Shown piece by piece: positions 3,001 to 6,000 of a stretch of DNA of 43,448 nucleotides (within the stretch, counting starts at the first letter, position 1; the number at the start of each line of letters is the position of its first letter). The DNA is from a virus (lineage: Duplodnaviria > Heunggongvirae > Uroviricota > Caudoviricetes). The stretch lies in IMG/VR virus record IMGVR_UViG_2861058914_000003. One strand, 5' to 3'. Made by a program: the position numbers.

Positions 3001-6000
3001 CGTGAGGATGGGTCATCGCCATTGCTCTCCAAATACAAAACCAATTTCAGCCAGTGCTTCGTCCATTTTTTCGATGAACTCCGGCACCATCTCGTCAAAA
3101 CTCGCCATGTACTTTTCATCCCGCTCAACCACGACATAATGCAGGCCTTCACGCTTCATTCGTGGGTCATAGTTGGCAAAGTACCAGGCATCTTTTCGTG
3201 TCACCCACATGCTGTACTGCACCTGGGCCATGTAAGCCGACTTTATGGCCTCGAAACCACCGAGCCGGAACTTCATGAAATCCCGGGAGGTAAACGGGCA
3301 TTTCAGCTCAAGGCCATTGCCGTCACTGCATAAACCATCGGGAGAGCAGGCGGTGCGCATACTTTCGTCGCGATAGATGATCGGGGATTCAGTAACATTC
3401 ACGCCGGAAGTGAATTCAAACAGGGTTCTGGCGTCGTTCTCGTACTGTTTTCCCCACGCCAGCGCCTTAGCATTAACTTCCGGAGCCACACCGGTGCAAA
3501 CCTCAGCCAGCAGGGTGTGGAAGTAGGACATTTTCATGTCAGGCCACTTCTTTCCTGAGCGGGGCTTTGCTATCACGTTGTGAACTTCTGAAGCGGTGAT
3601 GACGCCGAGCCGTAATTTGTGCCATGCATCATCCCCCTGTTCGACAGCTCTCACGTCGATCCCGGTACGCTGCAGGATAATGTCCGGTGTCATGCTGCCA
3701 CCTTCTGCTCAGTGGCTTTCTGTTTCAGGAATCCAAGAGCTTTCACTGCTTCGGCCTGTGTCAGTTCTGACGATGCGCGAATGTCGCGGCGAAATATCTG
3801 GGAACAGAGCGGCAATAAGTCGTCATCCCATGTTTTGTCCAGGGCAATCAGCAGAGTGTTAATCTCCTGCATGGTTTCATCGTTAACCGGAGTGATGTCG
3901 CGTTCCGGCTGACGTTCCGCAGTGTATGCAGTATTTTCGACAATGCGCTCGGCTTCATCCTTGTCATAGATACCAGCAAATCCGAAGGCCAGACGGGCAC
4001 ACTGAATCATGGCTTTATGCCGTAACATCCGTTTGGGATGCGACTGCCACGGCCCCGTGATTTCTCTGCCTTCGCGAGTTTTGAATGGTTCGCGGCGGCA
4101 TTCATCCATCCATTCGGTAACGCAGATCGGATGATTGCGGTCTTTGCGGTAAATCCGGCACGTACATGATTCATTGTCCTGCTCAAAGTCCATGCCATCA
4201 AACTGCTGGTTTTCATTGATGATGCGGGACCAGCCATCAACGCCCACCACCGGAACGATGCCGTTCTGCTTATCAGGGAAGGCGTAAATTTCTTTCGTCC
4301 ACGGATTAAGGCCGTACTGGTTGGCGACGATCAGCAATGCGATGAACTGCGCATCGCTGGCATCACCTTTAAATGCCGTCTGACGAAGAGTGGTGATCAG
4401 TTCCTGTGGGTCGACAGAATCCATGCCGACACGTTCAGCCAGCTTCCCAGCCAGCGTTGCGAGTGCTGTACTCATCCGTTTTATACCTCTGAATCAATAT
4501 CAACATGGTGGTGAGCAATGGTTTCAACCATGTACCGGATGTGTTCTGCCATGCGCTCCTGAAACTCAACATCGTCATCAAACGCACGGGTAATGGCTTT
4601 TTTGCTGGCCCCGCAGCGTTGCAAATGATCGATGCAGAGTGATTCAAACAGGTGCTGTGGAAGACCTTTTTCCATGTCGTCTGCCAGTTCTGCCTCTTTC
4701 TCTTCACGGGCGATCTGCTGGTAGTGACGCGCCCAGCTTTGAGCCTCAAGACGATCCTGAATGTAATAAGCGTTCATGGCTGAACTCCTGAAAATGGCTG
4801 TGAAAATATCGCCTGCGAAATGCCGGGCTGATTAGGTAAACAGGAAAGGGGATTAGTGATTCAGGCCGTTGCCGCGTCCGTCGAGAAAAACTTCCACGAG
4901 CAAATCACGGGTATAAGTGCGCTCGATGCCGCGATGCAGATAAAGCCGTCCGCGTAAATTAGCTGATGCAGTCCAGGTACCATCTTTGTGTTTGACCAGC
5001 ATTCCTGGCATGACCGCACCGCGATTAACGGTCTGCGTTCCGTAATGTTGATGAACCATAAAAACTCCTGCCCGTAAGCTGGGCTGCTGAACATATAGAG
5101 ACTTCTGCGCGTATTCAGGCGGTGGATGGCCGCCGGTTGTCATAACTAAGCCGCCTCGTTGAAGCGACTAAGGTATGAAATGTTGAGTTAATTTCAGCTG
5201 GTCACACCGACGTTCACGCGTCCGTTTCACCCCTCGCACTCCCCGAAGCCTGCTGAAATTCAAACTGCGGATCTAAGCGGTCATCGCAACGGTGAATCAG
5301 GTAGTTGCCGTATCGTTGTGTTGTTGCGATGAACTTATTTAAAACTATAGTTGTTTTATCGTCAACAACAAAAGTTGTTTTATTGGTTGTTTTAGATATA
5401 ACTGGTTGTATTTAGGATGGATTTATTTTGTGACTTGAATCGCATAGCGATAACTGAAGCGAGGTTATGGTGGTTTTTTTAACGGTGTGTGTGATGAGGG
5501 GAGGGCAAAAGAAAACCCGGCACGGTGACCGGGATTCTTACGCCGTTAGGTAAAGATATTATTGCGGTGGCTTAATATTACTACCTAGAGCAAAGATAGG
5601 AATTAGTTCTTTACTGAATGAGCACAATGCCCAGTTGATAATTTTTAATTGGTACTACCCATGCTTCCTATATGTCTGCGGCATGCTCCCAATAACCTTA
5701 CCGAAGATGAACACCCGGTTCATCTCGTCTTTCTCGATCGGGTCCCACGGTGAGTAGCTTTTGTTATCAGAGATGACCAGCAGCTTATCCTTCATCATTT
5801 GCAGGCGCTTTACATGGGCTGTGTCGTCGTACAGAAACGCATAGATACCATCACCGTCGAAAGATTTAACTGTGATATCAACGAACAGCAGATCACCTGG
5901 TTCGATCGTTCCTGACATGCTGTCACCACGCACGTTAATGATGCGGATATTTTCCGCCTTCCTACCATCGAACATGTGACGAGCATCGTCAAACGAGTAC

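What the first reader, a model, noticed from the sequence alone, without database searches (positions are those of the whole stretch)
5144..5340. Immunity region with no recognisable N gene and long inverted repeats in the pL leader
Between gam and cI, lambda carries kil, cIII, ea10, ral and N. Here there is only one 96-aa ORF that is not Arg-rich or N-like, then ~500 bp without any ORF of 60 aa or more. The putative leftward leader contains two long inverted repeats: AATTTCAGC/GCTGAAATT (about 5190-5198 and 5252-5260, enclosing ~53 nt) and TCATCGCAAC/GTTGCGATGA (about 5281-5290 and 5323-5332). This could indicate N-independent antitermination by a cis-acting RNA such as the put elements of HK022, or a different leader-based control. 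The second repeat overlaps my predicted transcription start, so it may instead be a DNA-level site.
Basis: partly seen in the sequence, partly recalled or inferred. Interest (0 to 1): 0.5.

Follow-up and report, generated by a model that had tools for sequence, protein, structure and literature searches.

The report
Structured leader RNA before phage kil
The two inverted repeats are real and lie in the roughly 270-base untranslated leader of the leftward early operon of a very common E. coli prophage that has no N gene, but the leader is not an HK022-type antiterminator RNA and looks more like a control region for the toxic cell-division inhibitor gene kil.

Summary
The 96-aa ORF is Kil; its real product is probably 68 aa, starting at ATG 5059. 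That makes 5330-5060 (minus strand) a ~270-nt leader running from the predicted pL start to kil.

A covariance model built from seven put RNAs finds putL and putR in put phages (E 1e-11 to 1e-28). It finds nothing in the window. The leader has no second copy downstream of pR, no nutL boxA/boxB and no N-like ORF.

Repeat 2 forms a stem-loop that begins at the predicted +1. Three unrelated promoter/operator types are fused to this same leader, and each keeps a helix from +1. Repeat 1 is a G-rich branched hairpin. It occupies the slot where relatives (phi80, HK639, HK225) carry a gene followed by the tL1 terminator. Neither repeat shows covariation, and thermodynamics favour them only weakly.

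The structure with solid comparative support is a third hairpin at 5177-5141. It sequesters the SD and AUG of a conserved leader ORF (MTTGGHPPP...): 98% paired, 7 pairs with compensatory changes, 0 of 500 shuffles as good.

Best reading: modular post-transcriptional or attenuation control of kil. How this phage passes its early terminators remains unexplained.

The parts
5337..5365 (-). Predicted pL promoter (-35 TTGACG 5365-5360, 17-nt spacer, -10 TTAAAT 5342-5337), embedded in the oL operator repeats.
   Evidence: It closely resembles pR of the same phage (TTGACT..TTTTAAT, ~6395-6425 +). The mosaic break between immunity types falls exactly at the predicted +1. The start site is predicted, not mapped.
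5283..5330 (-).
   Evidence: -8.6 kcal/mol, z -1.4. All three promoter types keep a helix from +1 with the conserved 3' arm (A AUCGCAAC, B GUCGCAAC, C AUUGCA). The 3' arm has diversity 0.004 against 0.05 at synonymous sites. Other pL leaders (phi80, HK639, Citrobacter/Kluyvera types) also begin AUCG.. with a small hairpin and an A/C-rich loop.
5314..5328 (-). CA-rich tract CGCAACAACACAACG, complementary to the R1 seed region of the host sRNA GcvB (15 bp including 2 G-U).
   Evidence: 8 of 2170 background windows score as well. The consensus CACAACA is taken from PMC4104026. This is a lead only.
5188..5262 (-). The outer stem is 5260-5249 / 5201-5190: 9 bp, an A.A mismatch, then 2 G-C pairs.
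   Evidence: -26.4 kcal/mol, z -2.2, 6 of 200 shuffles. There is no variation in the 5' arm. The terminal A-U pair is A.C in 77 of 96 variants. The hairpin sits where relatives have a gene plus the tL1 terminator. A competing fold is 3 kcal/mol better, and each stem has probability ~0.3.
5141..5177 (-). Hairpin that sequesters the SD (GAGG 5157-5154) and AUG (5143-5141) of the leader ORF.
   Evidence: -11.6 kcal/mol, z -3.5, 0 of 200 shuffles. Across 34 distinct variants: 98% of cells paired, 7 pairs with double changes, 73 compensatory cells, 0 of 500 shuffles as high, and slid controls 26-46% paired. All 39 variants fold the same way.
5117..5143 (-). Conserved start of the leader ORF, MTTGGHPPP (polyproline). 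It contains the hairpin GGCGG-CCAUCCA-CCGCC (5134-5118). In this window the ORF runs in frame into kil, which produces the '96-aa ORF'.
   Evidence: The same 25 nt are present in phi80, HK639, HK225 and 120+ IMG/VR contigs. The tail after HPPP varies from 10 to 43 aa or is fused to the downstream ORF.
5060..5116 (-). kil-proximal core (GCGCAGAAGUCU..GUUCAGCAGCCCAGCUUACGGGCAGGAG), including the kil SD AGGAG at 5069-5065.
   Evidence: This is the most constrained part of the leader: diversity 0.006 against 0.05 at synonymous sites. Related cores occur in all kil leaders of other genera and are read in different frames, so the constraint acts on RNA or DNA.
4853..5059 (-). kil (FtsZ/cell-division inhibitor, 68 aa), the first gene of the pL operon.
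   Evidence: phrog_294 E 1e-38. RefSeq annotates a 207-nt CDS. The alignment with phi80, HK225 and HK639 Kil starts at this Met.
6692..6704 (+). boxA (CGCTCTTTAACAA), 13 nt after the cro stop, in the nutR position.
   Evidence: It is the only match with 2 or fewer mismatches in the window. It is present in 50 of 103 related loci, all of the same immunity type. No boxB hairpin was seen.

Best explanation
The interval is the 5' untranslated leader of the pL operon, from the predicted start A5330 to the kil ATG at 5059, about 270 nt. The prophage is a lambdoid of the DLP12/Bievrevirus kind with neither an N gene nor a put RNA. The leader is a mosaic of four RNA modules. I infer that it protects the 5' end of the transcript, as 5'-terminal hairpins do in other E. 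coli mRNAs. Its role is unknown; it may be a structural or processing element. (3) A hairpin hides the SD and AUG of a short leader ORF (MTTGGHPPP...). (4) A strongly constrained core lies just before the kil ribosome site. I propose that the unit gates expression of the toxic Kil protein and the red genes behind it. By default the leader ORF is closed to ribosomes. The long leader then stays untranslated and is exposed to Rho-dependent termination or decay. Opening the hairpin would let ribosomes run in frame into kil. Shown here: the sequences, their distribution, the covariation of module 3, and the absence of put, nutL and N. Inferred: the start site and every functional step.
For: Position and boundaries. 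Three unrelated promoter/operator types join the same leader at the predicted +1. Kil is 68 aa.

Distribution. The 5' part of the leader is present in 2209 of 5426 complete E. coli genomes, nearly all at 95% identity or more, and is unannotated. PhiR34_1, a deposited complete phage genome 99% identical here, has no annotated N in the first 20 kb of its record (int to terminase).

Not put. Model R1 finds putL and putR in HK022, UPF_BP1 and phiEt88, and putL only in HK639, CobraSix and S9-5. Its best hit in window 4700-7400 with filters off is E 1.3. Rfam gives nothing.

Not nut/N. The Arg-rich 31-aa ORF is closed by a TAG in 39 of 96 variants and open in 57. It has no SD and no significant similarity to N.

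Module 3. Covariation is strong.

Module context. In phi80, HK639 and HK225 the same hairpin and leader ORF follow an intrinsic terminator. In phi80 the depositors also annotate a Rho-dependent terminator (tL1B) shortly downstream.

Precedent. Rac kilR is kept silent by Rho/NusG termination (PMC5793797).

Constraint. The kil-proximal core has diversity 0.006, and the I8 3' arm and I4 5' arm have 0.004 and 0.000, against 0.05-0.06 at synonymous sites of kil and gam.
Against: No experiment or transcript map is available, and the start site is predicted.

Repeats 1 and 2 carry no compensatory changes because the family is too shallow. Their stabilities are only mildly unusual (z -2.2 and -1.4). 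A competing long-range fold is 3 kcal/mol more stable, leaving each stem at ~0.3 probability at equilibrium.

The low diversity of the two arms rests on 8-12 sites and is not significant on its own.

The operons do contain terminators: minus 2357-2339 inside the pL operon, and 13529-13549 between P and Q. Some way of reading through them, or separate promoters, is needed and is not accounted for. A new kind of antiterminator RNA in this leader is therefore not excluded.
Confidence: 0.5

Rival explanations
1. The 5' part of the leader (stem-loop at +1 plus the branched hairpin) is a new cis-acting antiterminator RNA. It would be unrelated in sequence to put, would modify RNA polymerase as it leaves pL, and would replace N for the left operon.
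For: No N and no put are present, yet a good intrinsic terminator lies in the operon at 2357-2339. A near-identical immunity region and leader occur in a deposited complete phage genome (PhiR34_1, host listed as K-12 MG1655). The structured RNA begins at +1, as putL does (PMC9378689). The element is conserved and very widespread.
Against: There is no counterpart in the right operon, which also has a strong terminator before Q. There is no covariation, and the thermodynamic support is weak and ambiguous. Similar +1 hairpins with A/C-rich loops occur in phi80 (N phage) and HK639 (put phage), so that module is not specific to N-less phages.
Confidence: 0.12
2. The two repeats are leftovers of recombination or deletion events that removed an N-type gene and its terminator. 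They are conserved only because the module spread recently and have no function of their own.
For: Relatives carry a gene plus tL1 at exactly this slot. Variation across about 2200 E. coli genomes is very low, consistent with recent spread. Folding of the whole 5' part is not better than shuffles.
Against: No similarity to phi80 N or its leader, or to lambda N, was found. Three promoter types keep the +1 helix, partly through G-U pairs. The arms are less variable than synonymous sites.
Confidence: 0.2
3. The CA-rich 5' end of the pL transcript is a binding site for the host sRNA GcvB. It would either place kil/red expression under GcvB/Hfq control or act as a sponge for GcvB after induction, like the prophage anti-sRNA AgvB.
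For: There is a 15-bp complementarity to GcvB R1. The consensus CACAACA and the AgvB precedent come from PMC4104026. A/C-rich tracts recur at the 5' end of other kil leader types.
Against: The match was found post hoc. CA repeats are low-complexity sequence. Half of the site lies in the 5' stem. Promoter type C lacks it. No interaction data were found.
Confidence: 0.1
4. Repeat 2 is a DNA-level protein-binding site around the transcription start.
For: It is a perfect 10-bp inverted repeat straddling +1.
Against: The outer 2 bp are specific to one promoter type. In the other types pairing is kept through G-U, which is meaningless in DNA. The 32-bp spacing is atypical for a dimer site. The operators of this phage have a different sequence.
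Confidence: 0.03

Closest known systems
HK022 putL/putR antiterminator RNAs (also in HK639, HK75, phiEt88)
   Same: Both are found in lambdoid phages without N. In both, structured RNA starts at or next to the pL transcription start and has two stem-loop domains.
   Different: There is no sequence or structure match: a covariance model that recovers unseen putR copies gives E above 1 here. There is no right-operon copy, and the sizes and shapes differ (52 nt and 75 nt, against ~70 nt in total for put).
Lambda pL leader (nutL plus the RNase III-processed hairpin before N; from my own knowledge of Kameyama/Court work)
   Same: Both are long untranslated pL leaders with hairpins that influence translation of the first gene.
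   Different: Here there is no boxA/boxB and no N. The first gene is kil. The outer stem of the branched hairpin is only 9+2 bp, short for RNase III.
phi80 tL1A-tL1B region, and the equivalent regions of HK639 and HK225
   Same: The SD/AUG-sequestering hairpin, the MTTGGHPPP leader ORF and the kil-proximal core are homologous (63 nt at 84-95% identity, and the stem covaries).
   Different: In those phages the module follows a gene and an intrinsic terminator, and the leader ORF stops after 20-21 codons. Here it follows the branched hairpin and runs in frame into kil.
Rho/NusG silencing of Rac kilR (Cardinale 2008; PMC5793797)
   Same: A toxic Kil-family gene in an E. coli prophage is kept off at the level of transcription elongation.
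   Different: The Rac context differs (sieB lies upstream). No Rho site has been mapped here, and the C/G ratio of the leader is only moderately rut-like.
5'-terminal stabilising stem-loops such as the ompA 5' UTR (from my own knowledge, Emory/Belasco 1992)
   Same: A helix begins at the first transcribed nucleotide.
   Different: The start site is not mapped, the loop is large (32 nt), and stability is modest (-8.6 kcal/mol).

Membership tests
HK022-type put RNA | Match to the put sequence/structure consensus (two stem-loops, ~70 nt). | tested here: not met
   Model R1 was built from 7 put RNAs. It scores putL at 91-103 bits and unseen putR copies at 46-47 bits. The best hit in window 4700-7400 with filters off is 3.4 bits, E 1.3, and lies outside the leader. 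Pairwise alignment is no better than shuffles.
HK022-type put RNA | A second copy downstream of pR (putR). | tested here: not met
   Only 70 nt separate cro from the next gene. There is no model hit and no second copy of any leader segment in the window.
HK022-type put RNA | Structured RNA immediately downstream of pL in a phage without N. | tested here: met
   A helix begins at the predicted +1 and no N is present. The start site is predicted only.
HK022-type put RNA | Terminator read-through in cis that depends on the beta' zinc-binding domain. | not testable with these tools
   This needs reporter assays in rpoC mutants.
N / nut antitermination | An N-like arginine-rich protein encoded as the first pL gene. 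| tested here: not met
   The first gene is kil. Pfam and/or PHROGs searches of the early ORFs tested give no N. The 31-aa Arg-rich ORF has no SD, carries a polymorphic stop, and has no significant similarity to lambda or phi80 N.
N / nut antitermination | nutL (boxA plus a boxB hairpin) in the pL leader. | tested here: not met
   No boxA with 2 or fewer mismatches occurs in the leader, and no boxB-like element is evident.
N / nut antitermination | nutR downstream of cro. | tested here: inconclusive
   A perfect boxA lies at 6692-6704, but no boxB hairpin is seen. It is present only in this immunity type.
Leader-ORF translational gate (SD-sequestering hairpin) | A hairpin pairs the SD and start codon of a short ORF and is kept by compensatory changes. 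| tested here: met
   98% paired, 7 pairs with double changes, 0 of 500 shuffles.
Leader-ORF translational gate (SD-sequestering hairpin) | Translation of the leader ORF controls the downstream gene. | not testable with these tools
   This needs fusions or toeprinting. The in-frame fusion to kil in this window is suggestive only.
LH element (three-way-junction hairpin before kil in Citrobacter/Kluyvera/Enterobacter prophages, defined here) | Match to model R2 built from 53 distinct sequences. | tested here: not met
   The best hits in the window have E above 1 and none covers 5188-5262. Only the 3' arms are weakly similar (z ~3).
GcvB target or sponge | Complementarity to the GcvB R1 seed (consensus CACAACA). 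| tested here: met
   15 bp including 2 G-U at 5328-5314. Accessibility and Hfq binding were not tested.

The most novel reading that the evidence does not exclude
The 5' 145 nt of the leader (the stem-loop from +1 with its GcvB-complementary CA tract, plus the G-rich branched hairpin) is a previously undescribed functional RNA. It would be either a put-independent, N-independent cis-acting antiterminator for the left operon, or an induction-dependent sponge or sensor of the host sRNA GcvB. It is carried by prophages in about 40% of complete E. coli genomes.
Probability: 0.15. Interest if true: 0.8.

Novelty: new variant of a known kind. Interest (0 to 1): 0.42.

Why it matters
This prophage family comprises intact relatives of DLP12 (genus Bievrevirus and allies). 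It is present in roughly two of every five complete E. coli genomes, and it runs its early operons without N or put.

Knowing how its pL leader works bears on three things. The first is how the toxic Kil protein and the Red recombination genes are kept off and turned on. The second is how such phages pass their early terminators. The third is how far the lambda paradigm generalises.

The covarying hairpin with its polyproline leader ORF is shared by N phages, put phages and phages with neither. It is a concrete, testable regulatory element. I found no description of it in Rfam or in the searchable literature.

Tried and rejected
- **put.** Tested by pairwise alignment and a covariance model. 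No match.
- **Rfam.** Searched at a permissive E-value around the locus and at gathering score over the whole window. Nothing relevant.
- **N relic.** The Arg-rich 31-aa ORF (RLRGVRGVKRTRERR) lies in frame with the Kil ORF and sits where phi80 has N. It has no SD and a polymorphic stop, and its similarity to lambda N or phi80 N is no better than shuffles (p 0.11 and 0.33).
- **The long 'Kil' ORFs (128-139 aa) annotated in PhiR47_2 and Perceval.** These are explained by a CAG/TAG polymorphism at 5170 together with alternative start calls.
- **AgvB.** It is encoded elsewhere, in the pR' moron site, so it is not this element.
- **DicF-like sRNA.** No Rfam hit.
- **Homology of the branched hairpin to the LH element.** The model search was negative.
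- **Covariation in repeats 1 and 2.** Not possible. 96 unique contexts from IMG/VR and the phage records show almost no variation in the arms.
- **A second copy of the leader in the window.** None.
- **Match of the stem-loop's loop DNA to the ori iterons in gene O.** It covers one half-site only and is judged to be chance.
- **Literature searches** for N-less lambdoids, kil leaders and GcvB-prophage interactions. Nothing specific.
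Full report
**What the window is.** It is a lambdoid prophage of E. coli. The left arm reads int, xis, lambda-like orf61/63/60a, exo, bet, gam, then the 96-aa ORF at 4853-5143 on the minus strand. Next come an S24/HTH repressor (5655-6344, minus), a YdaS-type cro (6449-6679), a YdaT-type 'cII' (6749-7288), O, P and, further right, Q (16446-17135). The region 4780-5660 occurs at 95-100% identity in about 2000 of 5426 complete E. 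coli genomes. It also occurs in deposited complete phage genomes such as PhiR34_1 (99%), Turner, PhiR47_2, 4A7, 4C10, D2 and Perceval (genus Bievrevirus). PhiR34_1 has a DLP12-like nin region and no annotated N in the first 20 kb of its record (int to terminase).

**The observation.** No ORF of 60 aa or more lies in 5144-5654. Repeats of this quality arise in about 2-3% of shuffles of the 561-nt region. The 96-aa ORF is Kil (phrog_294, E 1e-38). RefSeq annotates the identical gene as 68 aa. The shorter form starts at ATG 5059 behind AGGAG and aligns from its first residue with Kil of phi80, HK225 and HK639. So kil is present and is the first gene of the left operon. What is missing relative to lambda is N, along with cIII, ea10 and ral.

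**Promoter and leader boundaries.** On the minus strand, TTGACG (5365-5360), a 17-nt spacer and TTAAAT (5342-5337) closely resemble pR of the same phage. This predicts a start at A5330. An alignment of seven phages, an O157 prophage and 96 unique contexts from IMG/VR shows three unrelated promoter/operator types: A in 62 contexts, B in 50 and C in 6. All are fused to the same leader, with the break at the predicted +1. For type C the break lies inside the loop of repeat 2. The leader therefore runs from about 5330 to 5060, roughly 270 nt, and behaves as a transferable module.

**Test of the put hypothesis.** I collected HK022 putL and putR plus the putL copies of UPF_BP1, phiEt88, CobraSix, S9-5 and HK639. 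From these I derived a consensus structure with compensatory pairs and built a covariance model. The model recovers all putL copies (91-103 bits). It also recovers putR copies that were not in the training set (E about 1e-11). In the window it finds only noise: E 1.4 in the structural genes, and E 1.3 or worse in 4700-7400 with filters off, with none of these hits on the repeats. Pairwise alignment is no better than shuffles. No Rfam family is present. The leader has no second copy in the window, and only 70 nt separate cro from the next gene. Membership in the put family is rejected.

**Test of N/nut.** No N family is hit by any early ORF tested. A 31-aa Arg-rich ORF (5168-5263) lies in the same frame as the Kil ORF, which explains the 128-139-aa 'Kil' proteins annotated in some relatives. 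This ORF has no SD. Its stop codon is TAG in 39 unique variants and CAG in 57. It is not significantly similar to lambda or phi80 N. The leader contains no boxA. One perfect boxA (CGCTCTTTAACAA, 6692-6704) does lie 13 nt after cro, the nutR position, with no visible boxB. It is confined to immunity type A.

**Repeat 2 (5283-5330).** Counted from the predicted +1, the RNA helix is AUCGCAAC/GUUGCGAU, with energy -8.6 kcal/mol and z -1.4. Type B leaders start GUCGCAAC, giving a G-U closing pair. Type C leaders start AUUGCA, which still pairs with the conserved 3' arm through a U-G pair. The outermost 2 bp of the DNA repeat are specific to type A. The 3' arm is almost invariant, with diversity 0.004 against 0.05-0.06 at synonymous sites of kil and gam. 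pL leaders of phi80 (N phage), HK639 (put phage) and Citrobacter/Kluyvera/Enterobacter prophages all begin AUCG... They all fold into a small hairpin with an A/C-rich loop within 0-9 nt of the predicted start. This recurring theme is independent of the antitermination system. It argues for a generic 5'-end function such as protection from 5'-end-dependent decay, which is an inference from established E. coli mRNA biology. It argues against a DNA site.

**Repeat 1 (5188-5262).** This is a G-rich (about 43% G) branched hairpin with energy -26.4 kcal/mol, z -2.2 and 6 of 200 shuffles as stable. Its arms do not vary except at the terminal pair, which is A.C in most variants, so covariation cannot be assessed. 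For the whole 5' part a competing long-range fold is about 3 kcal/mol better, and each stem has only ~0.3 equilibrium probability. Co-transcriptional folding would favour the local hairpins. Homology places the element in context. Window 5180-5118 matches the segment that lies just downstream of the tL1 terminator in phi80 (after N), HK639 and HK225. In most of the 57 upstream variants found in IMG/VR the sequence before that segment is an intrinsic terminator (...GCGGCUUUUUU-CAUACC). In the window type it is this branched hairpin followed by AACUCAACAUUU. Prophages of Citrobacter, Kluyvera and Enterobacter carry an ~85-nt three-way-junction hairpin just before the kil SD. I call it LH. It has an 18-bp helix that is 100% paired in 53 distinct sequences, with changes through G-U. 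A model of LH does not detect repeat 1. Only the 3' arms are weakly alike. The same model does detect a copy right after putL in Salmonella phage S9-5.

**The structure with real support (5177-5141).** A third hairpin inside the flagged interval pairs CAUA with UAUG (the start codon). It also pairs AGUCGCUUC with GAGGCGGCU, which contains the SD GAGG. Its energy is -11.6 kcal/mol with z -3.5. In 34 distinct variants 98% of cells are paired. Seven pairs show changes on both sides (73 cells) and no shuffle out of 500 reaches these values. Sliding the partners drops pairing to 26-46%. The hairpin guards a leader ORF whose first nine codons (MTTGGHPPP) are shared by all copies. The tail of the ORF varies from 10 to 43 aa or is fused to the next ORF. 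In this window it runs in frame into kil. Nucleotides downstream (GCGCAGAAGUCU...GUUC.GC...GGGCA) are conserved although they are read in different frames. They are the least variable part of the leader, with diversity 0.006.

**How it most likely works.** The comparative data fit a leader that limits and times expression of a toxic gene. The 5' end is protected by a terminal helix. Ribosome entry to the leader ORF is blocked by a conserved hairpin. The long untranslated RNA is then open to Rho or to decay. Depositors annotate a Rho-dependent terminator, tL1B, just downstream of the homologous module in phi80. Rac kilR is known to be silenced by Rho/NusG (PMC5793797). These steps are inferred, and I put the confidence at about 0.5. 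A true antiterminator RNA of a new kind is not excluded (0.12). The operon contains an 8-bp intrinsic terminator at 2357-2339, and the right operon has a strong one at 13529-13549 before Q. The absence of a right-hand counterpart and the presence of similar +1 hairpins in N and put phages argue against it.

**A lead seen on the way.** The tract 5'-CGCAACAACACAACG (5328-5314) can form 15 bp with the R1 seed of GcvB. R1 is the region mimicked by the prophage anti-sRNA AgvB (PMC4104026). Only 8 of 2170 background windows of the prophage score as well. The match is post hoc and involves low-complexity sequence.

**Verdict.** The put interpretation is not supported. The finding is a new variant of a known kind, a regulatory pL leader, and is moderately interesting because of its prevalence and the unexplained N-less early transcription.

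Noticed in passing
window 6692-6704 (+): A perfect rrn/P22-type boxA (CGCTCTTTAACAA) lies 13 nt after the cro stop, in a phage with no N. No boxB hairpin is seen. It is present only in loci of the same immunity type (50 of 103). It may recruit Nus factors on its own.
   Followed up: partly
window 5314-5328 (-): The CA-rich tract at the 5' end of the pL transcript is complementary to the GcvB R1 seed (15 bp including 2 G-U). A/C-rich tracts recur at the 5' end of other kil leader types.
   Followed up: partly
window 5117-5143 (-); also L008, L009, L010 and about 120 IMG/VR loci: The leader ORF starts MTTGGHPPP (a polyproline stalling motif). It is identical at the nucleotide level in N phages, put phages and phages with neither, and it has a variable tail.
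   Followed up: partly
L014, L017, L018, L020, L146-L235; L145 985-1075: An ~85-nt three-way-junction hairpin ('LH') lies just before the kil ribosome site in Citrobacter, Kluyvera and Enterobacter prophages, and directly after putL in Salmonella phage S9-5. It is not in Rfam.
   Followed up: partly
window 9252-14597: A cargo insert lies between P and the nin/Q region. It holds a 1421-aa ORF with three near-identical internal repeats of about 119 aa, which I read as invasin/intimin-like (no domain search was run on it). It also holds a convergent esterase (13554-14597, minus). A strong bidirectional terminator separates the two (13529-13549).
   Followed up: no
window 5440-5533: The block upstream of oL is conserved across immunity types A and B. 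It includes the cI-side terminator (5533-5516, minus). In relatives, defence or other cargo (GevAT, a SIR2 protein, others) sits between this block and cI. The window has none.
   Followed up: partly
window 5293-5303 (+) and 7727-7838 (+): The loop DNA of repeat 2 contains TGAATCAGGTA, the core of the four ori iterons TTACC(C/T)(G/A)AATCAGGTAA in gene O. Only one half-site matches, so this is probably chance.
   Followed up: partly
window 2339-2357 (-): An intrinsic terminator (8-bp stem plus a T-run) lies inside the pL operon, between the orf61-like gene and the TraR/DksA-like gene. How transcription passes it without N is unexplained.
   Followed up: no
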